Source: Minisyncoccota bacterium
GTDB lineage: Bacteria > Patescibacteriota > Minisyncoccia > Phycocordibacterales > JAQTLZ01
Reading direction: 5' to 3'
DNA length: 64,000 nucleotides
Assembly (NCBI GenBank): GCA_028711065.1
Contig: JAQTSY010000004.1
Coordinates: 34,522 to 98,521 of the forward strand
In this document: positions 12,312 to 64,000 of the stretch, piece after piece
Position numbering within the stretch: position 1 is the stretch's first letter
Layout of the letters: each line of letters starts with the position of its first letter
Notes under the pieces: model-generated
Databases searched by the model: none
What the model was told of the DNA's origin: nothing
What the model saw: only the letters and a program-made list of their open reading frames with translations
Position numbers and translations under genes: made by a program

Positions 12312-12405
12312 TGCACACAGACAGTGAAGAATCCTCAAGGCAGTCTCACTGCGAGATTGTGAGGGCAACTCTTCGTTGATAATCCAGGGAAAAGGAGAAT
12401 GTGTT

Positions 12406-13362: not shown

Positions 13363-13377
13363 GCGCTGGCACATGGT

Positions 13378-37923: not shown

Positions 37924-38658
37924 TTACGTATTTAAGACTTGGAGTCCCCAGAAGCAGTGATACTTGAGAGCGCTTCTCTGGAAGAACTCCAGCCGAAGGC
38001 CGTGAGTTGTCCAACGGAGAGCGGGTACTCGGTTGTCTGCAACCCATGAGCCCATAGCGTACATCGAGCACTCTTTCGGTCTTCGTATCCCGCGGAAGTA
38101 AAAGTAAAGCTCCCGTGCGAGAAGTTCAGTGAGTGTCACTTCGTGTCCCTCCGTCATGGATGCGGGCCATGCGTCTGATTCCTTCTGATCCACTTGAATC
38201 ATATAGGTCTTTCCTTCGCGGAACCGATTTCCGCCCAGGGTGCCCTGTGTCGGTTCCGGTTTATACGTCATCGGGAAGAATTTTTTACAGCACTCCTGAA
38301 GATCAGCCTCAAACCGGGTCTGATTTTTCACTTCAGGAATAAAGATCGAATTCTTCGCGTTACAACTGTGTTTCTCCAGACCAGGAAAAGCGACCTGCCT
38401 TTGGAGGAGGAACTTGTAAAACCGGACCCAGTGGGCGACTTCGTTCGCCACTGTCGGCGGATGAAAAAGCACTTTCTGCACCTCGTCTGCAAGGCACTCT
38501 TTTCCTCCCGTATCTTCCACCCACCACGAGGCTGTCTTTTCAGACAGGTTGAGCGGAACCGATCCTGCAAGCGCAGTATTCAGAAGCTTGATGCTTCTTG
38601 CAGTAAGCGTACCGCCTCTTTGAGACACGGCAGATCGGTTCTCCCCATGCGTACTCAT
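37924..38658 (-). CDS. GC-elevated hypothetical protein
   Basis: 244 aa, no recognised motif; composition differs from flanks; lies between two tRNAs. Confidence 0.45.
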   Translation of the reverse strand: MSTHGENRSAVSQRGGTLTARSIKLLNTALAGSVPLNLSEKTASWWVEDTGGKECLADEVQKVLFHPPTVANEVAHWVRFYKFLLQRQVAFPGLEKHSCNAKNSIFIPEVKNQTRFEADLQECCKKFFPMTYKPEPTQGTLGGNRFREGKTYMIQVDQKESDAWPASMTEGHEVTLTELLARELYFYFRGIRRPKECSMYAMGSWVADNRVPALRWTTHGLRLEFFQRSALKYHCFWGLQVLNT

Positions 38659-39215: not shown

Positions 39216-39962
39216 TTACGCCTTCTTTTGAATCCACCTTGCTACTATTTCATTCGCTTCTTTTTGAAGCTCTGGATACTTCGAAAGACTATGCGGGGCA
39301 TTTTTTATAAGCGCGTGTTCGAGTTGTGTCAGATCCGGTACTGCATTTTTGAAGTTAAGAATTGTCTGGTGGGGGACCATTTCATCTTTTTCCGACTCGA
39401 TAATAAGAATTTCTCCGGGAAATGTATGAATGGCTCGCAAAGCGAGTGTGGATTCAGAATCTCTTTTGTGTTCACGCCATTCATTTATTTTCGCTTGCTC
39501 GAAGATCATTCCTTTGGGCTTTTCGAATGTTTCGTCGGGATAATCTGCCGGAGCTCGGAGTATTATGAAATTCAGATTTCTTTTTTGGCTAAGGAGGAGC
39601 GCGAGGTATCCTCCAAAAGAGCTTCCGCTTACTCCAATTTTTTCTGTATCTACTTCAGACCGTTTCGCAAGGAAATCATATCCGAGGATTACATCATCGA
39701 GAAAATCTTTGCGGGAGAGGGAATTTTTATCACCCGCGCTTTTCCCATGCCCTCGTAAATCTAAAGTGAGACAGATGAAGCCGAATTTCTCCGCAAGCAT
39801 TTTTGCAGTATCAAACATCCTCTCTTGGGTGCTGTTCCATCCATGAAGAAGCAAAAGAGCAGGCCTTTTTGTTCCTTTTTCCTTCGGGAGGAAGACATTT
39901 CCTTCAAGTGTGTAGCCATTTCCCTTAATCTCTCTTCTTTCCATATTTTGATTGTAACTCAC
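39216..39962 (-). CDS. alpha/beta hydrolase (dienelactone hydrolase/S9-like)
   Basis: LLLLHGWNST...GVSGSSFGGY (GxSxG), C-terminal His. Confidence 0.7.
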   Translation of the reverse strand: MSYNQNMERREIKGNGYTLEGNVFLPKEKGTKRPALLLLHGWNSTQERMFDTAKMLAEKFGFICLTLDLRGHGKSAGDKNSLSRKDFLDDVILGYDFLAKRSEVDTEKIGVSGSSFGGYLALLLSQKRNLNFIILRAPADYPDETFEKPKGMIFEQAKINEWREHKRDSESTLALRAIHTFPGEILIIESEKDEMVPHQTILNFKNAVPDLTQLEHALIKNAPHSLSKYPELQKEANEIVARWIQKKA

Positions 39963-40170
39963 GAAATAGATTGACCCTAATTTTTCTTTGAAGAAAGTTG
40001 ATTTTAGCTAGTATATAAGCCGTATTTTTCAGCTTTTTATGCTTGACATTTGGGTCATAATATGCTATCATTATACCAGAACCTGCAATCCTTTTTATCT
40101 GTCTGTAGTCGGCCTGCGTGGCTGATGAGGATGATTGGGACCAGGGAGACCTTTGTGAGGAGTGTGAGTT

Positions 40171-41175
40171 ATGGTGCAGCAAATTGCAGTTCGGCCTATC
40201 GATGTCGTTGTGGAAGCCCTCAGGGCTGCCCGCAAAGCCGATGGTGCCGTGAATGAGGTCGGTTCGCCGATCGAAGAGCGGAGCTGGAACACTGATGTGG
40301 AGGGGGGCGCGACGTGGAAATCCATGTTCGGCAACCTCCATTTGCAGGTTTCCGGGTTCCGGCTCGAATTCCCGGAAGCCCAAGCCCAAAACATGTGGGC
40401 GGCGGCGAATATCGACAGGGGCGACAGGCCCTCGGCGGTTCGCGTGTTGCTCAGCATGCAGGCTGTGGAAGGCGCGAAGGTGCTCCACTGCGCCGCAGGT
40501 GAAGTCACTGATGTGACGGCTGGCAGTATGCCGGATCTCGTCGTGCCGGTGGTCTACGATGGTGCGGCGCCCCGCACGCGGGAGAAGGACAAGGACAACA
40601 TCGATATCGTGATTCTGCAACGGAACGGAATGTTCGTTCAGTTGCAGGTCTCGGTCATCACGCGCGGCGGAGTGTTCTACGTCGGAGTCCAGGAGATTTT
40701 CGCGGGTCAGGTCGTTCGGACCAATGCCTCGAAAGTCTTGAAGCTTGGACTCAAGAAGGAGACGATCAACGGCGCACAGGTGGGACTCATCGTCCCGTTG
40801 TTTGAGGGCAACGCCTACCCCGGCGCCGATTACTTGAATGTCTTCCCCCGCATGGGACCGAAGGTGATCAAGTACGCTGTTGCGCACGAGATGTGCGTTC
40901 CGCTCTCCGAGTGCGTCGTTGCCAAGTGGGCGCCGGAAGAGACGCCGTTGCCGCCGAATTTGAAGGCGGAAGACGGCTGGATGAGGGCGGTGGTCCGCTC
41001 CTACAACTTGGTCACTGGTTGCGGCCATCTGTTGTGCGACGACGGCGTGGATTGCTTCCTTCATTTCAGTGTGATCGGCGGGGATTTCCCTTCCGTTCCG
41101 CCCATGAAGGCCGTGGCGGTCCAGCACTGGTTGCGCGACAATCGTCGCAAGGCGCTCAAGTTCCAGAGCCTGTAA
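40171..41175 (+). CDS. GC-rich hypothetical protein with C-terminal cold-shock-like OB domain
   Basis: 334 aa; C-terminal GWMRAVVRSYNLVTGCGHLLCDDGVDCFLHFSVIGGDF resembles CspA core (KGxVKWFN..GFGFI..DG.DVFVHFSAI); TTGACA-17-TATCAT promoter 40053-40087, GAGGAG RBS; own terminator; long antisense ORF 39925-41241 judged artefact. Confidence 0.5.
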   Translation: MVQQIAVRPIDVVVEALRAARKADGAVNEVGSPIEERSWNTDVEGGATWKSMFGNLHLQVSGFRLEFPEAQAQNMWAAANIDRGDRPSAVRVLLSMQAVEGAKVLHCAAGEVTDVTAGSMPDLVVPVVYDGAAPRTREKDKDNIDIVILQRNGMFVQLQVSVITRGGVFYVGVQEIFAGQVVRTNASKVLKLGLKKETINGAQVGLIVPLFEGNAYPGADYLNVFPRMGPKVIKYAVAHEMCVPLSECVVAKWAPEETPLPPNLKAEDGWMRAVVRSYNLVTGCGHLLCDDGVDCFLHFSVIGGDFPSVPPMKAVAVQHWLRDNRRKALKFQSL

Positions 41176-41204
41176 CGCACAGGAAAACATCAGCAAATAA
41201 TATG

Positions 41205-41234
41205 GCGGAAACATGAAAAGGTTATGTTTCCGCC
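41205..41234 (+). terminator. intrinsic terminator GGCGGAAACAT-GAAAAGGTT-ATGTTTCCGCC + TTTT
   Basis: 11-bp stem right after 40171-41175 stop. Confidence 0.8.
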
Positions 41235-41295
41235 TTTTCATTTGTCCGGATTTTTTCGATGTCGAGAAGACAATTATTTGTTACTATTAAACACA

Positions 41296-51886: not shown

Positions 51887-53514
51887 CCCAAAATGAAGCT
51901 CTAAAAATCCTTAAAACTGGAGCGAATATTTTTCTCACAGGAGAGCCAGGGAGCGGAAAGACGCATACTATAAATGAATACACGCGCTATCTGCGTCAGT
52001 GTGGCATCGAACCTGCTATTACCGCTTCGACAGGCATTGCTGCTACGCATATCGGAGGAATGACTATTCATTCTTGGAGCGGGATTGGGATTCGGAAATT
52101 TCTGAATGAATATGATTTGGATAAAATTGCGACCAGTGAATATGTCACAAAGCGCGTCCGGAAAGCGAAAGTGCTCGTCATAGATGAAGTTTCAATGCTT
52201 TCTCCCGAGACTTTGTCGATGGTGGATGTGGTCTGCAGGGAAGTGAAAGGGAATACAGATGCATTCGGAGGGATGCAGGTGATTTTTGTCGGGGATTTTT
52301 TCCAGCTTCCGCCGGTTGTGAAAGCGGATATTGAATCTGAAAGCCAGTTATTTGAAGAAGAAGCTCCTCCTCGCTTTGCATACGGTTCTCCTTCTTGGAG
52401 AAATGCGAAAGTCCTGACTTGTTATTTGTCCGAGCAATATCGCCAGGACGATTCTGATTTCTTGTCTTTGCTTTCTGCAATCCGGCAAAATACTTTCGGT
52501 GATGCGCACAAAGAACATCTTGAAGCGAGAAAGATAGGAGAGAAGAAAATTTCAAAGGACGTTCCTCGGCTTTTTTCTCATAACGCGAACGTTGATCTTT
52601 TGAATGATCAGATGCTCGGTGCACTTTCTGAAGAACCGCGTGTGTACCTTATGACCTCAAGCGGAAAGCCATTTCTTGTTGAAGCTTTGAAAAAGGGATG
52701 TCTCTCTCCAGAAAAACTTTCGCTTAAGATTGGCGCGTCGGTGATGTTTACTAAAAATAATCCGAAAGAGGGATTTGTGAATGGAACGCTCGGCACAGTT
52801 TCCGGTTTTGAGTCAAGTTCAAATTTTCCAATCGTCGCTTTGCGAAACGGAAAAAAAATCGTGGTAACTCCGCTTGAATGGTCAGTCGAAGAGAATGGAA
52901 AAGTCCGAGCACAAATTTCACAACTTCCGCTTCGCCTTGCATGGGCGATTACGGTGCATAAAAGCCAGGGGATGAGCCTTGATGAGGCAGTGATGGATCT
53001 TTCGCAGGTATTTGAATATGGTCAGGGATATGTCGCACTTTCTCGCGTACGACGCCTTTCTGGGCTTCATCTCCTCGGTTGGAACGCGAAAACTTTTCAG
53101 GTTCATCCGGAAGTGCTCTCAAAAGATGAATCATTTCGGATCGCATCGGATGAAGCGGCAGAAATTTTCGGGAAAATTTCTGCCGCCGAGCTCGACAAAA
53201 TGCACGATAATTTCGTGAAAGTGTCGGGAGGGAATAGGCGAAAGCCAAAAATCGGCGTGTCCGATGTGAAAGGCGAAAAGAAAACGCTTGAAAAAATGAG
53301 AGAAAAGCATCCGAATGCGTATCGCAAATGGGATGACGGACAAGACCAAAAACTCAAAGATTTATTTGCAGAAAAGAAATCCATTCCTGACCTTATGAAA
53401 ATTCTTGGGAGGAAAAAAGGGGCAATTCAAATGCGTCTATTAAAATTCGGACTCATCGAGGATGATGGTTTTTCTTTGGCCTTCCAGAAGAAAAAAGAAA
53501 AAAAGAATGGATAG
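51883..53514 (+). CDS. PIF1/RecD-family ATP-dependent DNA helicase
   Basis: Walker A GEPGSGKTH, VLVIDEVSML, PIF1 signature, AITVHKSQGMSLD; C-terminal basic/HTH-like tail. Confidence 0.8.
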   Translation: MTQNEALKILKTGANIFLTGEPGSGKTHTINEYTRYLRQCGIEPAITASTGIAATHIGGMTIHSWSGIGIRKFLNEYDLDKIATSEYVTKRVRKAKVLVIDEVSMLSPETLSMVDVVCREVKGNTDAFGGMQVIFVGDFFQLPPVVKADIESESQLFEEEAPPRFAYGSPSWRNAKVLTCYLSEQYRQDDSDFLSLLSAIRQNTFGDAHKEHLEARKIGEKKISKDVPRLFSHNANVDLLNDQMLGALSEEPRVYLMTSSGKPFLVEALKKGCLSPEKLSLKIGASVMFTKNNPKEGFVNGTLGTVSGFESSSNFPIVALRNGKKIVVTPLEWSVEENGKVRAQISQLPLRLAWAITVHKSQGMSLDEAVMDLSQVFEYGQGYVALSRVRRLSGLHLLGWNAKTFQVHPEVLSKDESFRIASDEAAEIFGKISAAELDKMHDNFVKVSGGNRRKPKIGVSDVKGEKKTLEKMREKHPNAYRKWDDGQDQKLKDLFAEKKSIPDLMKILGRKKGAIQMRLLKFGLIEDDGFSLAFQKKKEKKNG

Positions 53515-54565
53515 AGCGCTTATTCAAAGATTGGAACGAGCGGTTGCCGAGAAAGTATTTCCGGGATGTGTCTTGGGAATTGTTTCCCGTGACGGCAAAA
53601 GGAGCATTTTTCCAGTTGGGAATTTTACTTATGAAAAAGATTCTCTGAAAGTTACGGAAAACACGATATACGATCTGGCTTCAATTACGAAATCGATTCC
53701 AACTTCCTGCGTTCTTTTGAAACTTCTTGAAGAAGGGAAAGTAGATATCGACGATAAAGTTTCGGACTTCATTCCCGAATTTGGAAATTTTCCTGAAAAA
53801 AAAGAAGTTACAATCAAAAATCTTCTCACCTATACATTGGAGCTTCAAGTTCCTGGACTTTCGTCGCTTAAAGACAAAACTCCGGACGAAATTGTTGCTC
53901 AAGTTGTGAGCGCTCATCTCAAATCTCGACCTGGTTCAAGATTTTTCTACAACAACGCAACTGCGCTTCTCATTGGCCTTGTCATTCAGAAAATTATAAA
54001 AGAACCGCTCGATGTGTACGCTGAAAGGGAATTTTTCGCGCCACTTGGTATGAATCGAACAACCTTCCATCCGGAGCGATTTCCGAAAACGGAAATCGCT
54101 CCGACGGAGGATGATCTTTGGCGCGGAAGAATCATTCAAGGTGAAGTCCATGATGAAAGTACATTCACTCTCCAGAAAAAATATTTCTTTGGTATCGCGG
54201 GGACTTTTTCAACAGTTCCCGATCTTCTCAATTTTCAAGAGATGCTTTTGACTGGGGGAGTAAAGAATGAAAAAAGATATTTTTCCGAAAGTATCATTGA
54301 AAAAATGCATACTAATATGATGTCGGAAGCTAAGGCCGAGCCAGTGGGTCTCGGCTGGAATATTTACAATCCCTTATATATGGGAACAAAAGTAAGTAAG
54401 GAAGTTTTTGGCAAAACCGGTTTTACCGGCACTCTTGTCCTTACTGATCCATTGAAAGGTATCGGATTTACGCTTCTTTCAAATAGAACATTTCCCAAAC
54501 GTCCAAAAGATTCAAATCTCATCAACGCCGTGAGAGGTGATATTGCAGACATCATTTTTTCGTAA
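53507..54565 (+). CDS. serine hydrolase, beta-lactamase/transpeptidase-like fold
   Basis: ASITKS (SxxK), YxN-like, KTGFTG (KTG) motifs. Confidence 0.7.
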   Translation: MDRALIQRLERAVAEKVFPGCVLGIVSRDGKRSIFPVGNFTYEKDSLKVTENTIYDLASITKSIPTSCVLLKLLEEGKVDIDDKVSDFIPEFGNFPEKKEVTIKNLLTYTLELQVPGLSSLKDKTPDEIVAQVVSAHLKSRPGSRFFYNNATALLIGLVIQKIIKEPLDVYAEREFFAPLGMNRTTFHPERFPKTEIAPTEDDLWRGRIIQGEVHDESTFTLQKKYFFGIAGTFSTVPDLLNFQEMLLTGGVKNEKRYFSESIIEKMHTNMMSEAKAEPVGLGWNIYNPLYMGTKVSKEVFGKTGFTGTLVLTDPLKGIGFTLLSNRTFPKRPKDSNLINAVRGDIADIIFS

Positions 54566-54652
54566 AAAAATCGGCTGAAACTAAACTAGTATCTGGTCGT
54601 GTTATACTAAGAGTCGCTCTGTCCTTTTTGCTGTTTGGCCTAGGAATCTCTC

Positions 54653-55756
54653 TTGAAAGGAGGGGTTGTGAAGAATAAAAGTGTCACACACCCTTCGGGA
54701 AGGGTGATTTTGAAGCGTGTCGCTTCTGTTGTGCTTCATGTTTACGCTCTCATCATGCTTATTGCGGTGGGGCTTAGCATGCAAGCAGTGCTTTCTACTG
54801 TTTCGGCGTATCTTTTCATAAGATGCGTTATCGTCATCGTTCAGTTCGAGCGTGAAATAAGAAGAACTGACGAGGGCAAGGAGCGCAAGCATTTGAAAAA
54901 AGGAGACCGGGCAAAGCTCGCTCCCATTAACTGGCTGCGCAGTATCGGTTTCTTCAGTGTCCACGTTGTTGGAATTGCAGGGCCTTTTGTGGTTGGTTGG
55001 AGTTGGTGGGCGACAGGCCTCGCGGTCTTCCTCTACTATCTTCGAATGTTTTTTATTACCGGTTTCTATCATCGGTATTTCAGCCACAAGAGTTTCAAGT
55101 CATCTCGCCGATTTGTCTGTATTATGGCGTTTTGCGGAGCGACTGCTCTTCAAAGGTCGGCTATTTGGTGGGCGGCAATGCATCGAATCCACCACGCCCA
55201 TTCCGACCAAGACGAGCGAGACAGACATTCTCCCCTTGTCTGGAGTATTATTGAAACGCATTTTCTCTGGCTTAACAGAAAGGGCGCAAAAGTATTTACG
55301 CCTCTGCCAGACGAGTTCATGGATGATCCTACCTTCGTGAGGAGCCAGCAGTATCCATGGGTGTATTTCCCCGCTATCATCATGGCGCTTGGGTGCTACA
55401 TCTTGGGTGCAGTGCTCTCGCACTGGTTCTATGATGTCAGTGGCGGGCAGATGCTTGTCGCGTTCTTCACAAGCACAACGGCTTTGTATCACGGTACAGC
55501 CTTTGTGAACTCTATCACTCACATGATAGGGGAACGCGATCACGATACAAAAGACAATAGCGGAGATGTTTGGTGGCTGGTTCTGTTTGTTCTCGGAGAA
55601 TGGAAACATAATTATCACCACAATGATCCGAGGGCTGCCAAGGAAAGCGAATGTGATCCGACGTATTGGGGGCTTATTGTCCTCAAGAAGTTAGGCCTCG
55701 TTTGGGATTTTGTTCCAGCGAGAGAAGAAAGAAAGAAGTTGATCGAGGTCGCTTGA
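54653..55756 (+). CDS. acyl-CoA/acyl-lipid delta-9-type fatty acid desaturase
   Basis: three His boxes HRYFSH, HRIHHAHSD, HNYHHN; 4 TM segments. Confidence 0.8.
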   Translation: MKGGVVKNKSVTHPSGRVILKRVASVVLHVYALIMLIAVGLSMQAVLSTVSAYLFIRCVIVIVQFEREIRRTDEGKERKHLKKGDRAKLAPINWLRSIGFFSVHVVGIAGPFVVGWSWWATGLAVFLYYLRMFFITGFYHRYFSHKSFKSSRRFVCIMAFCGATALQRSAIWWAAMHRIHHAHSDQDERDRHSPLVWSIIETHFLWLNRKGAKVFTPLPDEFMDDPTFVRSQQYPWVYFPAIIMALGCYILGAVLSHWFYDVSGGQMLVAFFTSTTALYHGTAFVNSITHMIGERDHDTKDNSGDVWWLVLFVLGEWKHNYHHNDPRAAKESECDPTYWGLIVLKKLGLVWDFVPAREERKKLIEVA

Positions 55757-55814
55757 AATACAGCGACCTCTTTTATTTATCTTTATGATATTCTAAATAC
55801 ACATTTTCATTATT

Positions 55815-56435
55815 ATGCCGGAGAAGAAAAAGAAAAAATCGAAACATATTCATGTCAAAGATGTCTATTTTGCGGATATGGGAGGGAAGATGAAAAAGGG
55901 ATTTGGACGCTCTCTCATCAGGAAAATTTTTCATCGGCCTGTTTTTAAGCGTGAAATTCATCACAAAACTTTCTCGGCAGATTTTAGCGCCACAAAACTC
56001 CGATGGTACTCCAATCTTTTGAATATGTTCTACTTGAAGCTCGATGGTGCCGCCTCATGTTTTTTCACCGATGAAGGAACACTCGTGATTATTTTTATGG
56101 TCTGGGGAGATCCTGATGCAGAAGAATTTTTTGAAATGCCACAAATGAAAGATGAATTCGTGGAGGATAGAGAAGCGACGCAGAAAAAAAAGAAAAAAAG
56201 TTTGAAAGTGGACAAGGATTCAGTAAAGGAGGAAGTGAAGGATGACGGGTATCATTTGCAATATGAAGAGACATACAAAGACCACGGCAAGGAAGTGAAG
56301 ATGTTTGAACATATTATTTATTCCGGAATTGATAAGCTGGTTTTCCGAGCGATTGTCCCGCCAAAAGTGTTGCCAGAAACGTTGGATGATATTTTGGCGA
56401 TTGCAAAGTCGCTTCGGATAAAGGTAACTCAATAA
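55815..56435 (+). CDS. hypothetical Lys-rich protein
   Basis: 206 aa, no motif. Confidence 0.4.
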   Translation: MPEKKKKKSKHIHVKDVYFADMGGKMKKGFGRSLIRKIFHRPVFKREIHHKTFSADFSATKLRWYSNLLNMFYLKLDGAASCFFTDEGTLVIIFMVWGDPDAEEFFEMPQMKDEFVEDREATQKKKKKSLKVDKDSVKEEVKDDGYHLQYEETYKDHGKEVKMFEHIIYSGIDKLVFRAIVPPKVLPETLDDILAIAKSLRIKVTQ

Positions 56436-56442
56436 AAGACAG

Positions 56443-56490
56443 AACAGCCCCGCCCGACAAAGTCGGGCGGGGCTGTTGCGTTTTTTTTTC
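56443..56490 (+). terminator. strong intrinsic terminator
   Basis: AACAGCCCCGCCCGAC-AAA-GTCGGGCGGGGCTGTT + T9. Confidence 0.88.
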
Positions 56491-56570
56491 GTAACGAGTA
56501 GGGTAGAGAGCGGAAGGTAAGGCAAAAACCTTGAATTTTGCCAACAGTTTTACTGTGGGAGGGCATTTCA

Positions 56571-57548
56571 ATGTCGGACTGTAAATTCGTAACGCTCCTT
56601 GAAGAGCGTTGGAAGAAGGGCAAATTCGCCTGCGTCGGGCTTGATTCGGAGCTCGGAAAGATCCCGGATTGCCTTAAGATGCAGACGAGTGATTCCACGA
56701 GTGCTGTCGTGAAATTCAATACGGAAATCATTAAAACCACGGCGGAACATGTCTGTTGCTTCAAGCCAAACGGTGCGTTCTATCTCGGTGAAGGTACCGC
56801 TGGAATGACAGCCCTTGATCGCACATTCCGGATAGCGGGGCAGTTGGCACCCTCAATTCCCCTCATCCTTGACCTCAAGGTGGGGGATATCGGCAACACC
56901 AATCGCGGCTACTTGAAGTTGCTGCTCGAACATCTCTGCGGCAACGCGATCACAGTGAACCCTTATGTCGGGGCGCACTGGGATCCTGATCCGACAAAAC
57001 ACGATGGCCTCCAGATTTTTCTCGAGGAGAAAGATATCGGCGTCTTCGTGCTCTGCCGCACATCGAACAAAGGCGCGACAGCCATTCAGGAAAGGCCTGT
57101 CATAGTGGGCGAAGCGGAATTTGAACACATGCAAGCTCTGGCGACTGCTGTTGATTGGAAAGGCACTGCCGGAGGATACATCATGCCGTTCTACCAGTAC
57201 ATCGCGCTCCTTGTGGATCGCGTCTGGAACAGGCACGGCAACTGCGCGCTGGTCGTCGGCGCCAATCATCCCAAACAACTCGCGGCTGTGCGCGAACTGT
57301 GCCCGAAGATACCGATCCTCATTCCTGCTTTTGGCAAACAGATCCAAGGCGAGGAAAACATCGTCAAGCAGACGGTCTTTGCCGGGCTCGATGCTTCCGG
57401 CGGCGGCATCATCTGCAACAATTCGCGCAATATCATCTTCGCCTCTGGCGGGGAAAATTATGCCGAGGCGGCGGGTGAAGCGGCCAAGAAGTTCAACGAT
57501 GAGATCTCAGGCTTCGTTTGCGACTGGCACGATGCGGCGAAGCAGTAA
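56571..57548 (+). CDS. pyrF: orotidine-5'-phosphate decarboxylase (long/type-2 form), GC-rich
   Basis: CVGLDSEL, LILDLKVGDIGNT matches DxKxxDIxxT catalytic motif; GGGAGGG RBS before ATG 56571. Confidence 0.75.
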   Translation: MSDCKFVTLLEERWKKGKFACVGLDSELGKIPDCLKMQTSDSTSAVVKFNTEIIKTTAEHVCCFKPNGAFYLGEGTAGMTALDRTFRIAGQLAPSIPLILDLKVGDIGNTNRGYLKLLLEHLCGNAITVNPYVGAHWDPDPTKHDGLQIFLEEKDIGVFVLCRTSNKGATAIQERPVIVGEAEFEHMQALATAVDWKGTAGGYIMPFYQYIALLVDRVWNRHGNCALVVGANHPKQLAAVRELCPKIPILIPAFGKQIQGEENIVKQTVFAGLDASGGGIICNNSRNIIFASGGENYAEAAGEAAKKFNDEISGFVCDWHDAAKQ

Positions 57549-57622
57549 CCCACTGGCTCACCCCGCCCGCGGCATTGTGCCGACGGGCGGAGGGCCGAAC
57601 ATAGCGAAAGGAGGAAATTCCA

Positions 57623-58303
57623 ATGCCGTCCAATAAGACAGAGGAACAATGGATGAAGGAGTTCACGCAAAGGGGGTCGCTCTGGATCCATGATGGAAAT
57701 CCGAAACGGCCTCATGCTCTTCTCACGAGCGGCGGACACAGCAACGGTTTCTTCAACGCAATCGAGAGCATCAAAGATCCGGATCTACTCGATGAAGCCT
57801 GTGATGACCTGCTCGATCTCCTCGATGAGGAGAAAGTGGTTGATAAGTCCGAAATGGTCATCGGCTCCGCGCTCGGCGCTGTTACCATTGCGTATCAGAC
57901 TGCAAAACAGCTTGTTGGTGTGAGCGCCGGCTGGACGGAAGAAGTGATCCTGGATCCGCCTGAGGATGCACCGGAGGGCGTAAAGGGAATAAAGATCATG
58001 GAGCTGAAACGCTTCGACATTAAGCCCGGAACGAAAATCCTGGTCGTCGAAGACGTGATGACAAGCGGTGCCACCACGGAGAAAACCATCGCCGGCATCA
58101 AGAAGAAGAACGGCATCGTCTTGCCGCAGATCGCCGTGCTTTTCAACAGGTCCGGCAAGACGCATCTCGGCGAGTACGAGATCGTCGCACTCATGACGCA
58201 TCCGCTCGAGAATTGGATGTCGCAGGACTGCCCTCTGTGCAAGAAGGGCTCGGAAGCAGTTCGTCCGAAGGCGAACTGGGCGAAGCTGACGGCAGCCTAC
58301 TAA
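57623..58303 (+). CDS. pyrE: orotate phosphoribosyltransferase, GC-rich
   Basis: LTSGGHSNGFFN (KSG..S.YFFN OPRT signature), PRPP-binding ILVVEDVMTSGATT. Confidence 0.7.
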   Translation: MPSNKTEEQWMKEFTQRGSLWIHDGNPKRPHALLTSGGHSNGFFNAIESIKDPDLLDEACDDLLDLLDEEKVVDKSEMVIGSALGAVTIAYQTAKQLVGVSAGWTEEVILDPPEDAPEGVKGIKIMELKRFDIKPGTKILVVEDVMTSGATTEKTIAGIKKKNGIVLPQIAVLFNRSGKTHLGEYEIVALMTHPLENWMSQDCPLCKKGSEAVRPKANWAKLTAAY

Positions 58304-58330
58304 ATAAGTACAGACAGATAAAGGATAGTG

Positions 58331-58365
58331 GCGCGAGGTGTAGAATCTACATCTTGCGCTTTTTT
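58331..58365 (+). terminator. intrinsic terminator after pyrE
   Basis: GCGCGAGGTGTAGAATCTACATCTTGCGC + TTTTTT. Confidence 0.8.
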
Positions 58366-58388
58366 ATTTGTCTGAATTTTGCTAGGGT
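58356..58388 (+). repeat. copy 1 of duplicated intergenic module GCGCTTTTTTATTTGTCTGAATTTTGCTAGGGT
   Basis: ~30/33 identical to 59157-59189; each follows a different terminator hairpin. Confidence 0.8.
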
Positions 58389-58392
58389 GTGA

Positions 58393-59106
58393 GTGGTGGT
58401 CGCGCCGGTTTCTGTGCTCATTTCGAGTACGCTGGTTCGCCAAACCTTTCACACTGGATTAGAGGGGGTTCATTTGAGAAAACAAATTGCTGAAGACAGA
58501 AGTCCGCCGGCGTCATCGCTACTGCAGATTGGTGCAGGGGATGACGCACTCGACGTTCTCAGCCTTTCTGGCGGGATATCGGGAGATCTCTTCCAGGACT
58601 TCGTCAGGGCAGGGATGTTCCCACACGTCATGAAGCATTTCGCCGCACGCTTGGTAGAGAATTCCGCGTTTGAGGACATTCGCGGGAGTCTCGATTGTCT
58701 CTGTGCCGTGTCTGTGGAGAGCATAAAGTTTGCCACCCACATCAGTGCACTCTGTGACTGTCGCGACATTTATCTCGAGCACGAAGAGAGGGATGTTGAC
58801 ACGAACATACAGCGTGAGGCATCAATGCTCGTGGTCGGACGGCACAAAATAGAGAGGGGAATACGCTACGGACTTGTCGACAACGTGCTCAATTTCTCGA
58901 CTGTCGACGAGGCTGCAAGGCTCATCATGAGTAAGGGTGGCATTGTCGTTGGGTTGTTTGGAATCCTGAATTGTTCGCCACGCTTTATCACCAGCTATGT
59001 GTCGCAAGGTGGCGCCATCAACCTGCCCGTAATCGCGGTGAAGCATGAGCCGAATCCCATAGAGGTGCCGTGGCAGAGTAAAGACAGGAACGTGAGGAGA
59101 ATGTAG
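58393..59106 (+). CDS. GC-rich hypothetical protein, possible type-I phosphoribosyltransferase-like fold
   Basis: YGLVDNVLNFSTVDEAARLI resembles PRPP-binding motif (hydrophobic4-D-D/N-x-x-T/S); possible TTG start at ~58474 after GAGGGGG RBS. Confidence 0.35.
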   Translation: MVVAPVSVLISSTLVRQTFHTGLEGVHLRKQIAEDRSPPASSLLQIGAGDDALDVLSLSGGISGDLFQDFVRAGMFPHVMKHFAARLVENSAFEDIRGSLDCLCAVSVESIKFATHISALCDCRDIYLEHEERDVDTNIQREASMLVVGRHKIERGIRYGLVDNVLNFSTVDEAARLIMSKGGIVVGLFGILNCSPRFITSYVSQGGAINLPVIAVKHEPNPIEVPWQSKDRNVRRM

Positions 59107-59133
59107 AAGAATGTAGTGAAAAGAGAATACAGT

Positions 59134-59189
59134 GCAGAGTCGCTCGCCCGGACTCTGCGCTTTTTTATTTGTTCGAATTTTGCTAGAGT
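59134..59189 (+). repeat. terminator hairpin + copy 2 of duplicated intergenic module
   Basis: GCAGAGTC-GCTCGCCCG-GACTCTGC then GCGCTTTTTTATTTGTTCGAATTTTGCTAGAGT. Confidence 0.8.
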
Positions 59190-59196
59190 TCCCAGT

Positions 59197-60111
59197 ATGA
59201 AATCAAAACTGGTGAGTTTCGAGACTGAAGACGATTTGAGTCTTTCTGGCCTTCTGTATGAACCAAAAAACCGGTCGAAGAAAATCGCCATATTTTTGCA
59301 CGGAAATGGAAACGGGTCTATTTTTAATAACCCAGAATTACAAAATACTATTGGTGACGCGCTCACGAAAAAGGGCATTGCTTATTTCCCATTTAATAAT
59401 CGTGGGTCGGGTTACATAAGAAGTTTTAGTCGGATGGTAAAGGGCAAGAAAGTGAGACGAAATCAGGGTATGGCATTCGAGCTTATTAAGGATTGCGTGA
59501 TCGATATAGACGCCGCGCTTGCGGCCCTGCGCAAGCGCGGCTACTCCGAATTCTATCTCCTCGGTCATTCGACGGGAGCGAACAAAATCTGCGTCTACAA
59601 CTACTACAAACCGAAAAATATTTTCTCAAAATTTGTGCTGCTTGCACCAGGCGATGATGTCGGCGGGTATCTGGATATGTGGGGTCCGCAGAAATTCGGC
59701 GCAATGCTCAAGATGTCGAAAGATAAAATCAAAGCAGGGAAGGGAGATGAGCTTGTTCCACAAAATCTTTCCAGCTACAACTTTATTTCATTTAAATCCC
59801 TGTATGACACGATCAATCCTGATGGGGACTACAATGTTTTTCCGTATTTTGAAGTGTTGCATAATCTTGGTCTGACTAAAAAGAAAAAAATTTGGCGAGA
59901 ATACCAGAGTCTCAAAAAACCAACTCTCGTTCTCATGCCAGGAAAGGACGAGCATTGTTATGGAAAGATAAAAGAAGTAGTAAAAATGCTTCAGCAAAAT
60001 GCTCCCGGCAAAAATTTCGATTTCAAAATTCTTCCTGGTTCATTACACGGCTTTTGGAAAAAAGAAAAAGAACTCTCTAAGCTCCTTGCTGATTGGCTCG
60101 CTTCAAACTAA
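59197..60111 (+). CDS. alpha/beta hydrolase
   Basis: IAIFLHGNGNG, GHSTGAN (GxSxG), C-terminal His; start trimmed to ATG 59197. Confidence 0.7.
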   Translation: MKSKLVSFETEDDLSLSGLLYEPKNRSKKIAIFLHGNGNGSIFNNPELQNTIGDALTKKGIAYFPFNNRGSGYIRSFSRMVKGKKVRRNQGMAFELIKDCVIDIDAALAALRKRGYSEFYLLGHSTGANKICVYNYYKPKNIFSKFVLLAPGDDVGGYLDMWGPQKFGAMLKMSKDKIKAGKGDELVPQNLSSYNFISFKSLYDTINPDGDYNVFPYFEVLHNLGLTKKKKIWREYQSLKKPTLVLMPGKDEHCYGKIKEVVKMLQQNAPGKNFDFKILPGSLHGFWKKEKELSKLLADWLASN

Positions 60112-60120
60112 GATAGAACA

Positions 60121-60711
60121 ATGACAGCCGCAATCCTTCTCTACGTTCTTCATTTTAGTTATCTCGGTATTTTTGTTGTTGTTTTCGCCGAATCAGGATT
60201 TCTTCTCGGGTTTTTCTTGCCTGGAGATTCGCTCCTTTTTACCGCAGGCCTTCTTTCATCGCAGGCAATTTTTAATATTTGGATTCTCGTTCCTCTTATT
60301 GTCATCGGTGCAATTCTCGGCGACAGTTTCGGCTATTATATGGGTAACAAATTAGGCCCAAAGATTTTTGTGCGAAAAGATTCATTTTTCTTCAAACAAG
60401 AAAATGTTGAAAAGACAAATCATTTTTATGAGAAGTATGGAGTGAAAACGATCATCCTCGCGCGTTTTGTCCCAATTGTACGCACTTTCGCTCCCATCTT
60501 TGCCGGTGTTGGGGGAATGAAATACTCAACCTTTCTTTCTTACAACGTGATTGGAGGATTTCTGTGGGGTGCTGGAGTGACTCTTGCCGGCTTTTTCCTT
60601 GGCCGGGCGTTTCCTGGAATCGAACACTACGTCACTTATATTATCATCCTGATTATTCTCGTTTCTTTTGTCCCGATTCTCTTAGAGTATTTCAAGAAGC
60701 GAAAAGCTTGA
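60121..60711 (+). CDS. DedA/SNARE-associated (VTT domain) membrane protein
   Basis: GFFLPGDSLLFTAG motif, 4-5 TM. Confidence 0.8.
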   Translation: MTAAILLYVLHFSYLGIFVVVFAESGFLLGFFLPGDSLLFTAGLLSSQAIFNIWILVPLIVIGAILGDSFGYYMGNKLGPKIFVRKDSFFFKQENVEKTNHFYEKYGVKTIILARFVPIVRTFAPIFAGVGGMKYSTFLSYNVIGGFLWGAGVTLAGFFLGRAFPGIEHYVTYIIILIILVSFVPILLEYFKKRKA

Positions 60712-63544: not shown

Positions 63545-63553
63545 GGGAAATGC

Positions 63554-63590
63554 AAAGCCCCGCGCCGATTTCATCGGCGCGGGGCTTCTT
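63554..63590 (+). terminator. intrinsic terminator
   Basis: AAGCCCCGCGCCGAT-TTC-ATCGGCGCGGGGCTT. Confidence 0.85.
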
Positions 63591-63696
63591 GCTTTCTTCT
63601 CCCGTGGATGATTATATGAATCAGGTAGTTTGTTCCATTGTGTTGTTTGTCATTTTTTGAGTTGAAACCCATTTTCCCTACGGGGGAGGAGATGCC

Positions 63697-64000
63697 GTGA
63701 TCAAGCGTTACGAGCAGGAAGATGTGAGAAATCGCTGCAGTAAAGAAACGAAAGTGAAGGGCTGGGACAAGACCGAACTCGCTGTCATCGAAGCAAGGGA
63801 GCATCTCGGAAGGATTTCGCACGAATGTTTCGATACCATTCGGGATGTCCTCAAGGCGCATCCTGTTGATATCGCGAAGTGGGAGGCGCTTGAAAAGGAA
63901 ATGAATCATGATCTGAATGCCTATTCCGAGGAGCGCAAAGGCTACTTGCCGGCGATGTACAAGAACGAGTTTCACCGGCAGATCACTTCCTACGACACCG
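63697..64000 (+). CDS. purB: adenylosuccinate lyase (5' partial, GTG start), GC-elevated
   Basis: N-terminal VIKRYEQEDV...WDKTELAVIEAREHLGRIS...EKEMNHDLNAY...HRQITSYD parallels PurB IERYSRPEM...WLEVE..A.EA.ELG.I...EKDTRHDVVAF...HYGLTSTD; GGAGGAG RBS. Confidence 0.65.
   Translation, partial: MIKRYEQEDVRNRCSKETKVKGWDKTELAVIEAREHLGRISHECFDTIRDVLKAHPVDIAKWEALEKEMNHDLNAYSEERKGYLPAMYKNEFHRQITSYDT

What the first reader, a model, noticed from the sequence alone, without database searches (positions are those of the whole stretch)
56540..59110. GC-rich nucleotide-metabolism island: pyrF-pyrE-PRTase-like, with duplicated intergenic module; purB at window end also GC-elevated
A 2.6-kb GC-rich block encodes OMP decarboxylase (DxKxxDIxxT motif), orotate phosphoribosyltransferase (YFFN signature plus PRPP motif) and a third ORF with a PRPP-binding-like motif.
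- Two different terminator hairpins are each followed by the same ~33-bp sequence GCGCTTTTTTATTTGT(CT/TC)GAATTTTGCTAG(G/A)GT, at 58356-58388 and 59157-59189. This suggests a repeated promoter/terminator cassette.
- The partial purB at 63697+ is also compositionally elevated.
- If the host is a reduced-genome organism lacking de novo nucleotide synthesis, this looks like horizontally acquired capacity to convert orotate to UMP (and a purine step). Otherwise it is a foreign replacement of native genes.
Basis: partly seen in the sequence, partly recalled or inferred. Interest (0 to 1): 0.7.

Follow-up and report, generated by a model that had tools for sequence, protein, structure and literature searches.

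The report
Swappable GC-rich orotate-to-UMP gene cassette
A small-genome Patescibacteria (CPR) bacterium carries its orotate-to-UMP genes as a GC-rich block in a slot where close relatives hold different, unrelated versions of the same genes, so this is gene replacement within the phylum rather than a new capacity acquired from outside.

Summary
Window 56565-59130 is a GC-rich block (GC3 0.61-0.69 against a background of 0.42 ± 0.05). It encodes a type-2 OMP decarboxylase, a PyrE-like phosphoribosyltransferase and a third PRT-fold ORF. A 34-nt sequence is repeated after two different terminator hairpins. The partial purB is also GC3-rich (0.64).

The window comes from a Paceibacteria (Patescibacteria) MAG. 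Two sister MAGs have flanks 85-89% identical. Between the same ribosome-binding site and the same terminator they carry a non-homologous type-1 pyrF and a full-length 274-aa PRT-like gene, and that block is also GC-rich. So the function belongs to the locus and the genes were exchanged. All named best hits are Patescibacteria.

ORF3 is a truncated, motif-degenerate member of a poorly annotated PRT family with the motif EDVxNNFSTT. That family lies next to pyrF in 59 of 80 metagenomic loci and is sometimes fused to it, so it is probably those organisms' OPRTase. ORF3 is still under purifying selection (dN/dS 0.27).

The repeat is a terminator T-tract plus an extended -10 promoter.

Across 41 related loci, these pyr genes exceed their neighbours' GC3 by a median of 0.095.

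The parts
56443..56489 (+). Intrinsic terminator of the upstream hypothetical gene (55815-56435): a 16-bp GC-rich stem plus a T9 run. It belongs to the conserved backbone.
   Evidence: terminator scan. (dG -38.4 kcal/mol, z -7.4). Conserved in sister locus L002.
56490..56564 (+). Conserved pyrF leader. It contains a promoter-like GAATTTTGCCAACAGT (56533-56548) related to the 3' half of the repeated module, and the Shine-Dalgarno GGGAGGG (56557-56563). Backbone homology with the sister genome ends here, about 7 nt before the ATG.
   Evidence: blastn flank alignment L002 3182-6462 = window 53277-56564. Alignment of the boundary. Sequence.
56571..57548 (+). pyrF, type-2 (subfamily 2) orotidine-5'-phosphate decarboxylase, 325 aa.
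   Evidence: TIGR02127 167.6 bits, above the 110.6 cutoff. Pfam PF00215 48.7 bits. Best PDB relatives are type-2 OMPDCs: 3qw3 at 3e-30, then 4mjz and 3r89. DxKxxDIxxT motif present. GC3 0.65.
57554..57597 (+). GC-rich hairpin without a T-run between pyrF and pyrE. It is not a terminator. It is conserved (89% over 47 nt) downstream of the non-homologous type-1 pyrF of the sister genome.
   Evidence: dG -32.9 kcal/mol, z -3.6. (L002 7232-7278). Its stem resembles the 56443 terminator, and the two are the only such pair in the window.
57623..58303 (+). PyrE-like type I phosphoribosyltransferase, 226 aa. It has an intact PRPP loop (VVEDVMTSGATT) and is the probable OPRTase.
   Evidence: PF00156 31.2 bits, above the 26.3 cutoff. 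TIGR01367 82.9 bits, below the 150 cutoff. Best PDB hit 4paw OPRT. 38% identical to the gene that follows pyrF2 in L004. 388 homologs, the named ones from Patescibacteria or annotated 'orotate PRTase'.
58330..58366 (+). Intrinsic terminator of the pyrF-pyrE unit: a 14-bp stem plus a T-run.
   Evidence: (dG -22.4 kcal/mol, z -5.8).
58355..58388 (+). Repeated module, copy 1: terminator tail and T-tract, then an extended -10-like TGCTAGGGT. It is the presumed promoter of ORF3.
   Evidence: 34 nt, 31/34 identical to copy 2. 27/27 identical to the module upstream of DUF1749 in L002. The TGnTAnnnT-before-ATG pattern is common in this genome.
58474..59106 (+). ORF3, 210 aa (TTG start after the SD GAGGGGG). 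It is a truncated, motif-degenerate member of the pyrF-linked 'EDVxNNFSTT' PRT-like family.
   Evidence: NCBI annotates the 210-aa form. 38% identical to the sister 274-aa protein, E 2e-31. The family search gave 157 hits. Alignments A3 and A4. AF2 model pLDDT 87, and Foldseek's best hit is OPRT 4paw with TM 0.62. dN/dS 0.27 against L011.
59131..59166 (+). Intrinsic terminator of ORF3 (an 11-bp stem plus a T-run). It belongs to the conserved backbone, and homology with the sister genome resumes here.
   Evidence: dG -18.8 kcal/mol, z -4.2. (L002 8156 onward). A 42-nt stretch, 59131-59172, is identical to L002.
59156..59189 (+). Repeated module, copy 2: T-tract plus the extended -10-like TGCTAGAGT. 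It ends 7 nt before the ATG of the DUF1749 hydrolase gene (59197-60111), which has no SD, so the mRNA is probably leaderless.
   Evidence: Conserved in L002, and in diverged form in L011.
63697..64000 (+). 5' part of purB (adenylosuccinate lyase), cut by the window end. It is GC3-rich and occupies a position where the sister genome has secE-nusG-rplK.
   Evidence: TIGR00928 positions 1-99, 38.9 bits. GC3 0.64, and no homology to L002 after the SIMPL gene.

Best explanation
**What the block does.** The block is the organism's orotate->OMP->UMP module. A type-2 pyrF and a PyrE-like OPRTase are probably co-transcribed from a conserved leader and end at an intrinsic terminator. ORF3 follows with its own promoter and terminator.

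**How it got there.** The module sits in a strain-variable slot of a Paceibacteria (Patescibacteria/CPR) chromosome. The non-coding scaffold is shared with sister genomes at backbone-level identity: leader and SD, a hairpin after pyrF, and the final terminator with the downstream promoter. The coding segments between these pieces are exchanged for non-orthologous versions: type-1 or type-2 pyrF, a canonical 'TSG' PyrE, or an 'NNFST' PRT-like gene. The most likely mechanism is homologous recombination within the conserved scaffold or flanks, using DNA from other, GC-richer Patescibacteria. That would explain why the block has not adopted the local composition.

**ORF3.** ORF3 is a shortened NNFST-family protein that has lost several family-invariant residues. 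These include the ED acidic pair, the PMGG loop and both terminal blocks. It is probably non-catalytic but is still maintained by selection.

**The repeat.** The 34-nt repeat is the T-tract of a terminator fused to an extended -10 promoter. It was duplicated when the pyrF2-pyrE unit, carrying the scaffold's terminator-promoter end, was joined upstream of ORF3.

**Shown versus inferred.** Gene identities, slot polymorphism, boundaries, composition, hairpins and selection on ORF3 are shown. Recombination as the mechanism, donor identity, promoter activity, operon structure and ORF3's lack of catalysis are inferred.
For: **Gene identities.**

**Host.** The proteins are 100% identical to those of a 'Candidatus Pacebacteria' MAG with a 99.9-kb contig.

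**Slot polymorphism.**
- Sister loci L002 and L003 are syntenic, and their flanks align at 85-89% nucleotide identity up to window 56564 and again from 59131.
- Flanking proteins are 88-97% identical.
- Inside the slot there is a type-1 pyrF (TIGR01740 100 bits, above the 92.3 cutoff) with no BLASTP similarity to the window's pyrF.
- There is also a 274-aa PRT-like protein, 38% identical to ORF3 and 26% identical to the window's PyrE.

**Boundaries.** They fall right after the SD and right before the terminator. The post-pyrF hairpin is conserved in both cassettes.

**Mosaicism.** L011 carries an ORF3 ortholog next to a DUF1749 gene that is closer to L002's (dS 0.39) than to the window's (dS 1.15).

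**Co-occurring strains.** An independent Logan contig covers exactly 56476-59160. Its ends are the first and last strain-specific 31-mers next to the two stretches shared with L002.

**Intra-phylum origin.**
- All named best hits are Patescibacteria.
- pyrD-pyrF2-pyrE synteny occurs in L004.
- Gene combinations are shuffled elsewhere: L007 has pyrF2 with an NNFST gene, L015 has pyrE followed by pyrF, and fusions exist.

**Composition.**
- Island GC3 has z = 3.8-5.4.
- The sister slot is also GC-rich.
- Across 41 loci, pyr-gene GC3 exceeds that of neighbours by a median of 0.095 (Wilcoxon p = 1e-6).

**ORF3.**

**NNFST family and pyrF.** The family is adjacent to pyrF in 59 of 80 loci, with no separate canonical pyrE nearby.

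**Terminators and promoter.**

**Literature.** HGT in Patescibacteria occurs mostly within the phylum and includes nucleotide-metabolism genes (PMC12455944).
Against: - No donor closer than 53% (PyrF) or 54% (PyrE) identity was found, so the source lineage and the direction of replacement (which allele is ancestral) are unknown.
- GC3 elevation of these genes recurs in most loci. That could also reflect a gene-specific process, such as selection or GC-biased gene conversion at a recombination hotspot, rather than recent import.
- TIGR01367 scores the PyrE-like protein below its trusted cutoff.
- No transcription data support the promoter, leaderless or operon assignments.
- The origin of the module duplication is reconstructed, not observed. 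The region upstream of the ORF3 ortholog in L011 is missing.
- Some of the 80 comparison loci are near-duplicates, and their taxonomy was not verified individually.
Confidence: 0.68

Rival explanations
1. A reduced genome lacking pyrimidine synthesis acquired a foreign orotate->UMP island (and purB) from an unrelated, GC-rich donor, and so gained a new capacity.
For: Strong GC3 deviation. The block is absent as such from the sister genomes. No pyrB/C/D in the 64-kb window. purB is also GC3-rich and is absent from the syntenic site in the sister genome.
Against: Sister genomes encode pyrF plus a PRT-like partner in the very same slot, so the capacity predates the present genes. All named homologs are Patescibacteria. 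The leader, SD and terminator are backbone sequence.
Confidence: 0.1
2. There has been no recent transfer. The pyr genes are old residents whose high GC3 is maintained by a gene-specific force, either codon selection or GC-biased gene conversion at a recombination-prone locus. The two cassette types are ancient alleles sorted among strains.
For: GC3 elevation of pyrF and PRT genes over their neighbours is systematic: a median of +0.095 in 41 loci, none below -0.05. It appears in both alternative cassettes. ORF3 dS (0.98) is similar to the flank dS against L011 (1.15).
Against: Type-1 and type-2 PyrF share no detectable sequence similarity, yet they sit between flanks with dS of only 0.5-0.7. 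At least one replacement is therefore required. Ribosomal proteins and other enzymes in the window are not GC3-elevated. Some lineages show no elevation (L012, L015).
Confidence: 0.15
3. The island is an assembly or binning chimera. A GC-rich fragment from another organism was spliced into the MAG contig.
For: There is a sharp composition change. An independent assembly yields the island as a separate 2.7-kb contig.
Against: That contig includes 89 nt of backbone leader on the left and the backbone terminator on the right, and it breaks exactly where k=31 graph branching with a co-occurring strain predicts. Three other independent assemblies (L002, L003, L011) join GC-rich pyr or PRT genes to the same flanks.
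Confidence: 0.03
4. The hairpins and the 34-nt module are recombination sites of a dedicated cassette system (integron-like attC or att sites) that inserts promoterless genes.
For: Gene-sized units are each followed by an imperfect hairpin. The module is duplicated at cassette ends. The exchange is precise, from SD to terminator.
Against: No integrase, transposase or recombinase is present in the window or in 20 kb of the sister locus. Two of the hairpins are ordinary intrinsic terminators with T-runs. The module occurs only here in the 64 kb and was not found in JGI metagenomes. The hairpins differ in sequence.
Confidence: 0.04
5. ORF3 is simply a decaying pseudogene left over after the canonical pyrE arrived.
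For: It lacks the N- and C-terminal family blocks. It has lost about 11 of about 27 nearly invariant family residues: ED->DN, PMGG->VSVES, EKK->EHE, NRS->NCS. Its dN/dS is higher than that of the flanks.
Against: It is an intact 210-codon frame with an SD. An ortholog with the same truncations exists in another strain at dS about 1.0 with dN/dS 0.27. The AF2 model is confident and compact (pLDDT 87).
Confidence: 0.2

Closest known systems
Type-2 (subfamily 2) OMP decarboxylase, TIGR02127 / PF00215 (for example the Leishmania and Plasmodium enzymes and the bacterial structure 3r89)
   Same: The full-length match is above the curated cutoff. The catalytic DxKxxD motif is present. The length is that of the longer type-2 form.
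   Different: It is only 44-53% identical to its nearest database relatives. It sits where sister genomes have a type-1 enzyme.
Thermus-type orotate phosphoribosyltransferase (TIGR01367 pyrE_Therm; structure 4paw, H. pylori HP1257)
   Same: It is the best family and the best solved relative. The PRPP loop is intact. The gene follows pyrF, as in other Patescibacteria.
   Different: It scores 82.9 bits against a cutoff of 150. It carries an insertion (DPPEDAPEGVKG) and a C-terminal CPLC...RPKxNW tail shared with Patescibacteria homologs.
Xenologous or non-orthologous gene displacement in situ at a 'replacement' flexible genomic island. The concept is known from O-antigen loci and marine bacterial pangenomes (from my own knowledge).
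   Same: Conserved flanks, the same function and deeply divergent alternative gene sets at one locus. There are no mobility genes. Co-occurring strains carry different versions.
   Different: The exchanged unit here is a core-metabolic enzyme pair in a reduced CPR genome. The break points fall within a few nucleotides of the SD and the terminator.
UMP synthase-type PyrF-PyrE fusions (NF004034 bifunctional OMPDC/OPRT; eukaryotic UMPS)
   Same: Members of ORF3's family occur fused C-terminally to type-1 or type-2 PyrF (P0298, P0322, P0353). The family profile hits the OPRT domains of human and Leishmania UMPS.
   Different: The PRT half carries EDVxNNFSTT instead of the canonical EDVxT(S/T)Gx(S/T) loop. 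ORF3 itself is unfused, truncated and degenerate.
Horizontal gene transfer among Patescibacteria (PMC12455944, mSystems 2025)
   Same: Transfers are mostly intra-phylum, genomic islands are present, and nucleotide-metabolism genes are among the acquisitions.
   Different: That study does not describe pyrF or pyrE (0 occurrences of 'pyrimidine' or 'orotate'). It also does not describe an allele-swap slot or a systematic GC3 offset of these genes.

Membership tests
OMP decarboxylase, type 2 (TIGR02127 / PF00215) | Whole-protein score above the curated cutoff | tested here: met
   167.6 bits against a cutoff of 110.6. Pfam 48.7 bits against 27.
OMP decarboxylase, type 2 (TIGR02127 / PF00215) | Catalytic Asp-x-Lys-x-x-Asp motif | tested here: met
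   LDLKVGDIGNT appears in the translation.
OMP decarboxylase, type 2 (TIGR02127 / PF00215) | Decarboxylation of OMP to UMP | not testable with these tools
   This needs an enzyme assay or complementation of a pyrF mutant.
Orotate phosphoribosyltransferase (PyrE), for the 226-aa protein | Score above the curated cutoff of a PyrE equivalog model | tested here: not met
   TIGR01367 82.9 bits against a cutoff of 150. TIGR00336 39.9 bits against 106.8.
Orotate phosphoribosyltransferase (PyrE), for the 226-aa protein | Type I PRT domain with an intact PRPP-binding loop | tested here: met
   PF00156 31.2 bits against a cutoff of 26.3. The loop reads ILVVEDVMTSGATT.
Orotate phosphoribosyltransferase (PyrE), for the 226-aa protein | Genomic linkage to pyrF, and OPRTs as the closest characterised relatives | tested here: met
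   It lies directly downstream of pyrF here and in L004. The best PDB hit is 4paw OPRT.
pyrF-linked 'EDVxNNFSTT' PRT-like family, for ORF3 | Significant profile or sequence similarity to family members | tested here: met
   E 2e-31 to the sister 274-aa protein. There are 157 family hits from the ORF3+P0133 profile.
pyrF-linked 'EDVxNNFSTT' PRT-like family, for ORF3 | Family motifs: the N-terminal CGGxYxCP...LGPLVGYAG block, PMGG, EDVxNNFSTT, LNRS, and the C-terminal QDD...WKPKxxW block | tested here: not met
   ORF3 lacks both terminal blocks. It has VSVES, VDNVL-NFSTV and LNCS instead.
pyrF-linked 'EDVxNNFSTT' PRT-like family, for ORF3 | Type I PRT fold | tested here: met
   AF2 pLDDT 87 and pTM 0.83. 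Foldseek's best hit is 4paw (E 1e-8, TM 0.62), followed by APRTs and OPRTs.
pyrF-linked 'EDVxNNFSTT' PRT-like family, for ORF3 | Adjacency or fusion to pyrF | tested here: inconclusive
   The family has pyrF within 600 bp in 59 of 80 loci, and fusions exist. ORF3 itself is separated from pyrF by pyrE and a terminator.
Horizontally acquired genomic island | Composition deviating from the host genome | tested here: met
   GC3 z = 3.8-5.4.
Horizontally acquired genomic island | Absent or different in close relatives with conserved flanks | tested here: met
   L002 and L003.
Horizontally acquired genomic island | Mobility signatures: integrase or transposase, tRNA target, flanking direct repeats | tested here: not met
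   No such genes were found. The nearest tRNA is 8 kb away. The 34-nt repeat does not flank the island: one copy is internal and the other lies at its right edge.
Horizontally acquired genomic island | Gene trees incongruent with the species tree, and an identified donor | not tested
   Only best-hit taxonomy was used, and all named hits are Patescibacteria. No tree was built for lack of labelled close relatives.
Rho-independent terminator | GC-rich stem-loop immediately followed by a T-run | tested here: met
   The sites at 56443-56489 and 58330-58366 were found by the scan. All three fold stably. 59131-59166 has a 9-nt loop and was missed by the scan but fits by folding.
Integron gene cassette | Integrase with attI, and attC sites with conserved R/L boxes | tested here: not met
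   There is no integrase in the window or the sister locus. The hairpins are dissimilar and two carry T-runs.
Adenylosuccinate lyase (PurB), for the partial ORF at 63697 | Match to the purB equivalog model | tested here: inconclusive
   Model positions 1-99 are matched at 38.9 bits (E 4.6e-10). The full-length cutoff of 326 bits cannot be reached by a 101-aa fragment.

The most novel reading that the evidence does not exclude
The last two steps of UMP synthesis in Patescibacteria may be carried by a phylum-wide pool of freely exchanged gene modules with their own composition. The modules would be type-1 or type-2 pyrF combined with either a canonical PyrE or an unrecognised 'NNFST' OPRTase family that standard models often miss. 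These modules would be swapped into fixed chromosomal slots between conserved regulatory scaffolds. If so, many CPR genomes scored as 'pyrF without pyrE' actually have a complete orotate-salvage route. The persistent GC3 excess of these genes would mark continual transfer, or biased gene conversion, rather than a single event.
Probability: 0.3. Interest if true: 0.6.

Novelty: new variant of a known kind. Interest (0 to 1): 0.45.

Why it matters
**Metabolic reconstruction.** CPR/Patescibacteria are usually described as unable to make nucleotides. This locus shows that the orotate->UMP branch is present. It also shows that the branch is strain-variable and is exchanged within the phylum.

**A likely missed enzyme.** The partner of pyrF in many of these genomes is a PRT-like family that Pfam recognises in only 16 of 31 sampled members. 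NCBIfam scored the 10 family members tested, five of them PyrF fusions, below the PyrE cutoffs. Metabolic reconstructions may therefore miss the OPRTase step.

**How reduced genomes change.** The near-exact SD-to-terminator replacement gives a concrete example of how a reduced genome renews core metabolic genes without any mobile-element machinery.

**A testable pattern.** The GC3 excess of these genes across dozens of loci can be followed up, either as a signature of recurrent transfer or as biased gene conversion.

Tried and rejected
1. **Island-less allele.** The Logan contig L001 ends between the terminator stems and their T-runs, which suggested an empty-site variant. I rejected this. The ends are exactly the first and last strain-specific 31-mers next to stretches shared with L002, as k=31 graph branching predicts.
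2. **Exact look-ups of flanking proteins in Logan or ENA.** These found nothing beyond NCBI. The listing of cluster members then gave the sister MAGs.
3. **GTDB-representative scan with the DUF1749 flank protein.** It returned only 3 distant loci, none with pyr genes nearby, so it gave no further alleles of the slot.
4. **Exact-pattern scan for the 34-nt module in JGI metagenomes.** It gave 0 hits. Within the window, relaxed matches are at chance level (5 found against 4.97 expected).
5. **Rfam.** At gathering thresholds it found only tRNAs. An E-value scan of 56300-59300 gave two sub-threshold hits on the terminator, and no PyrR site or riboswitch.
6. **Sigma-70 consensus scan.** It found 0 promoters in 55500-60500. 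The promoter assignment rests instead on the genome's own TGnTAnnnT-before-ATG pattern.
7. **Integron or attC idea.** Rejected for lack of an integrase and of any similarity between the hairpins.
8. **Universality of the GC elevation.** It is absent in L012 and L015 and present in most of the 41-47 further loci.
9. **Literature searches.** No paper on pyrE or pyrF in CPR was found. One relevant HGT paper was found.
10. **Pfam and NCBIfam on the other GC-rich ORFs of the window.** There were no hits.

Full report
**1. What is in the sequence**

The window averages 44% GC. Between about 56500 and 59150 the 200-nt GC rises to 0.50-0.61, against 0.37-0.45 on either side. Three same-strand ORFs fill the block.

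- **pyrF (56571-57548).** It is a type-2 OMP decarboxylase. It scores 167.6 bits on TIGR02127 (cutoff 110.6) and matches Pfam OMPdecase. The motif LDLKVGDIGNT is present. Its best solved relatives are type-2 enzymes.
- **PRTase (57623-58303).** It is a type I phosphoribosyltransferase with an intact PRPP loop, VVEDVMTSGATT. It passes Pfam PF00156. Its best family model is Thermus-type PyrE, but at 82.9 bits it falls below the 150-bit cutoff. Its best solved relative is the OPRT 4paw.
- **ORF3.** It has no Pfam hit. NCBI annotates it as a 210-aa hypothetical protein starting at TTG 58474, behind an SD.

Third-position GC is 0.65, 0.69 and 0.61 for the three genes. The other 49 ORFs of the window average 0.418 ± 0.051, giving z = 3.8-5.4. 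That background leaves out four other GC3-rich ORFs with no family hits.

The 34-nt repeat (58355-58388 and 59156-59189, 31/34 identical) is real and has no other close copy in the window. Each copy begins in the 3' arm of a different stable hairpin and runs through its T-tract.

The partial ORF at 63697 matches the N-terminus of purB and has GC3 0.64. Small corrections: the signature reads GFFN rather than YFFN, ORF3's motif is degenerate, and ORF3 probably starts at 58474.

**2. Whose genome, and what relatives have at this site**

The proteins are identical to those of a 'Candidatus Pacebacteria/Paceibacterota' MAG with a 99.9-kb contig. The window starts at dnaA-dnaN and otherwise holds ordinary chromosomal genes: ruvABC, polA, PBP, pilus genes, ribE/H, folD and others. 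It has no other pyr or pur gene and no integrase or transposase.

Cluster look-up revealed two sister MAGs, and their loci were fetched as L002 and L003. They are syntenic with the window.

- Flanks align at 85-89% nucleotide identity up to window 56564 and again from 59131.
- Flanking proteins are 88-97% identical.
- Flank dS is 0.5-0.7 with dN/dS 0.03-0.14.

Between these points the sister genomes carry different genes:

- a 251-aa type-1 PyrF (TIGR01740 100 bits, above the 92.3 cutoff) with no BLASTP similarity to the window's PyrF;
- a 274-aa PRT-like protein that is 38% identical to ORF3 (E 2e-31) and 26% identical to the window's PyrE-like protein.

The sister slot is also GC-rich, at 0.57 with GC3 0.62-0.67, in a 44% GC genome.

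The boundaries are sharp. Homology runs through the leader and the SD (GTGGGAGGGC), stops about 7 nt before the start codon, and resumes at the terminator hairpin CAGAGTCGCTCGCCCGGACTCTG with its T-tract and the downstream promoter. Inside the slot, a 47-nt hairpin element after pyrF is conserved at 89% although the two pyrF genes are unrelated.

A third relative is L011, a 985-bp Logan contig. It has an ORF3 ortholog (64% aa identity) followed by the same terminator and the DUF1749 gene. Its DUF1749 5' end is closer to L002's (dS 0.39) than to the window's (dS 1.15). Slot content therefore does not follow flank relatedness.

An independent Logan contig, L001, is 100% identical to window 56476-59160. 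Its first and last 31-mers are exactly the first and last strain-specific k-mers next to the two stretches (56470-56505 and 59131-59172) that are identical to L002. A k=31 assembly gives this result when a related strain is present in the same sample. This rules out a chimera. It also removes the need for an 'empty site' allele.

**3. Where the genes come from**

Apart from self, the best PyrF hits are 51-53% identical, and the rest are about 44% identical. Every named hit among the top 120 is from Patescibacteria: Liptonbacteria, Moranbacteria, Kaiserbacteria, Yanofskybacteria, Paceibacterota. The PyrE-like protein has 388 homologs, the best at 54% identity. The named ones are Patescibacteria or are annotated as 'orotate phosphoribosyltransferase'.

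The closest PyrF (P0002) lies in a pyrD-pyrF2-pyrE cluster whose PyrE is 38% identical to the window's. Other contigs show different combinations:

- pyrF2 followed by an NNFST-type gene (L007);
- pyrE followed by a type-1-like pyrF (L015);
- fusions of PyrF with an NNFST-type domain.

The two steps are therefore encoded by interchangeable modules within the phylum, and the donor here is most likely another Patescibacterium. No close donor was found, and which allele is ancestral in this genus remains open.

**4. ORF3 and its family**

A word-indexed search found only ORF3 itself and one 64% relative. A full HMM search of 1.8 billion representatives found 157 hits, mostly proteins of about 250 aa.

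The family has a conserved N-terminal block (CGGxYxCP...GxRLGPLVGYAG), PMGG, and EKK. Its hallmark is IVEDVxNNFSTT in place of the canonical EDVxT(S/T)G loop. It also has LNRS and a C-terminal block, QDDxxVAxDxxxGNVxWKPKxxW.

Several lines tie the family to OPRTases and to pyrF:

- Its profile matches OPRTases best among solved structures: 4paw at 4e-13, then the OPRT domains of human and Leishmania UMPS.
- Several members are fused C-terminally to type-1 or type-2 PyrF.
- In 80 metagenomic loci, 59 have pyrF within 600 bp (17 type 1, 42 type 2). In 47 of these pyrF lies upstream on the same strand. None has a separate canonical pyrE within 3 kb.

Annotation of the family is poor. Pfam PF00156 detects only 16 of 31 members at E ≤ 1e-3. 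NCBIfam PyrE models scored the 10 family members tested, five of them PyrF fusions, far below their cutoffs. The family is therefore most likely the OPRTase of these organisms. This is an inference from linkage, fusion and fold, and it has not been shown biochemically.

ORF3 and its ortholog lack both terminal blocks. They have also changed about 11 of about 27 near-invariant residues: ED->DN, PMGG->VSVES, K103->H, R167->C. Even so, the frame is intact and the AF2 model is confident (pLDDT 87), with a type I PRT fold. dN/dS against the ortholog is 0.27 at dS about 1. I read ORF3 as a maintained, probably non-catalytic derivative. A slowly decaying relic is the main alternative.

**5. The repeat and the expression signals**

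The region holds four stable hairpins:

- the upstream terminator at 56443-56489;
- a hairpin without a T-run after pyrF, so pyrF-pyrE read-through is likely;
- a terminator after pyrE;
- a terminator after ORF3.

Each copy of the 34-nt module consists of the last bases of a terminator stem, a T-tract, and GAATTTTGCTAG(G/A)GT. The last element contains TGCTAGRGT, an extended -10-like sequence.

Many genes in this window have TGnTAnnnT 5-15 nt before an ATG with no SD. Copy 2 ends 7 nt before the ATG of the DUF1749 gene, which suggests a leaderless mRNA. Copy 1 would drive ORF3 through an 85-nt leader. The pyrF leader contains a related GAATTTTGCCAACAGT.

Copy 1 is 27/27 identical to the sister genome's DUF1749-proximal module. 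This suggests that the pyrF2-pyrE unit arrived with a scaffold-type terminator-promoter end and was joined upstream of ORF3, duplicating the module. That step is a reconstruction.

No Rfam family, PyrR site or riboswitch was found.

**6. Composition beyond this genome**

pyrF and its partner are GC3-rich relative to their neighbours in L002, L004 and L014, but not in L012 or L015. Two broader comparisons used the NNFST loci:

- In 47 loci with at least 3 kb of flank, the pyr region exceeds flank GC by a median of 0.079. The excess is above 0.03 in 35 loci and below -0.03 in 1.
- In 41 loci with at least 3 neighbouring ORFs, pyr-gene GC3 exceeds the neighbour median by 0.095. It is above 0.05 in 28 loci and below -0.05 in none (Wilcoxon p = 1e-6).

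There are caveats. Some loci are near-duplicates, the ORF calls were mechanical, and taxonomy was not checked locus by locus.

The window's island is thus one instance of a recurrent pattern. The pattern fits repeated import from GC-richer members of the phylum. It would also fit a locus-specific bias such as GC-biased gene conversion. Published work reports that HGT in Patescibacteria is mostly intra-phylum and includes nucleotide-metabolism genes (PMC12455944).

purB in the window is GC3-rich and sits where the sister genome has secE-nusG. The sister genome also has an extra GC-rich 186-aa ORF that the window lacks. Together these show that GC-rich strain-variable inserts are a general feature of these genomes.

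**7. Verdict**

The whole-genome pathway question remains open.

The kind of event, in-situ xenologous replacement at a flexible slot, is known. The less familiar parts are three:

- the SD-to-terminator precision of the exchange in a CPR genome;
- the pyrF-linked NNFST PRT family and its degenerate ORF3 derivative;
- the phylum-wide GC3 offset of these genes.

Noticed in passing
window 11766-14456: This is a second GC-rich patch (57-61% GC). Its ORFs at 12376-13362 (GC3 0.74) and 13599-14456 (GC3 0.66) have no Pfam or NCBIfam hit. One is Ala/Thr-rich and looks like a coiled-coil or membrane protein, and the other is Cys/Trp/Pro-rich with a signal-peptide-like N-terminus. A Gly-run ORF at 11766-12215 precedes them.
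   Followed up: partly
window 37924-38658 (-) and 39925-41241 (-) / 40171-41175 (+): Two more GC-elevated stretches (GC 0.52-0.57, GC3 0.57-0.58) encode ORFs with no family hits. For the second stretch the coding strand is ambiguous.
   Followed up: partly
window 63545-64000 vs L002 13426-14831: After the SIMPL gene the window has a GC3-rich purB, where the sister genome has secE-nusG-rplK. This is another strain-variable junction, cut off by the window end.
   Followed up: partly
L002 9313-9873 (-): The sister genome carries an extra GC-rich (0.59, GC3 0.72) 186-aa ORF with no family hit between DUF1749 and the VTT/DedA gene. The window lacks it (60072->60145).
   Followed up: partly
window-wide, e.g. 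35022, 46505, 47271, 59197, 61059: Many genes have an extended -10-like TGnTAnnnT 5-15 nt upstream of the ATG and no Shine-Dalgarno, which suggests frequent leaderless or very short-leader mRNAs. Others (pyrF, pyrE, ORF3, purB) have strong GGAGG-type SDs. The imported GC-rich genes are the ones with SDs.
   Followed up: partly
proteins P0298, P0322, P0353, P0359, P0393: These are natural fusions of type-1 or type-2 PyrF with an NNFST-type PRT domain. They resemble UMP synthase in architecture but carry the non-canonical PRPP loop.
   Followed up: partly
L018-L097 (80 metagenomic loci): The pyrF and NNFST genes are systematically richer in GC and GC3 than their neighbours (median +0.079 GC and +0.095 GC3). 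In a few loci pyrD is adjacent (L045, L048, L051, L085, L094).
   Followed up: yes
window 54653-55756 and L002 4572-5657: The fatty-acid desaturase gene just upstream is mildly GC3-elevated in both genomes (0.53 and 0.57). A desaturase is an unusual gene for a CPR genome.
   Followed up: no
window 243-2976: dnaA and dnaN lie at the start of the window, so the region is near the replication origin. Cumulative GC skew rises across the whole window.
   Followed up: no
L007 5797-6668: The NNFST-type gene downstream of pyrF2 on this ENA contig is split over three frames. This is either a frameshifted pseudogene or a sequencing error.
   Followed up: no
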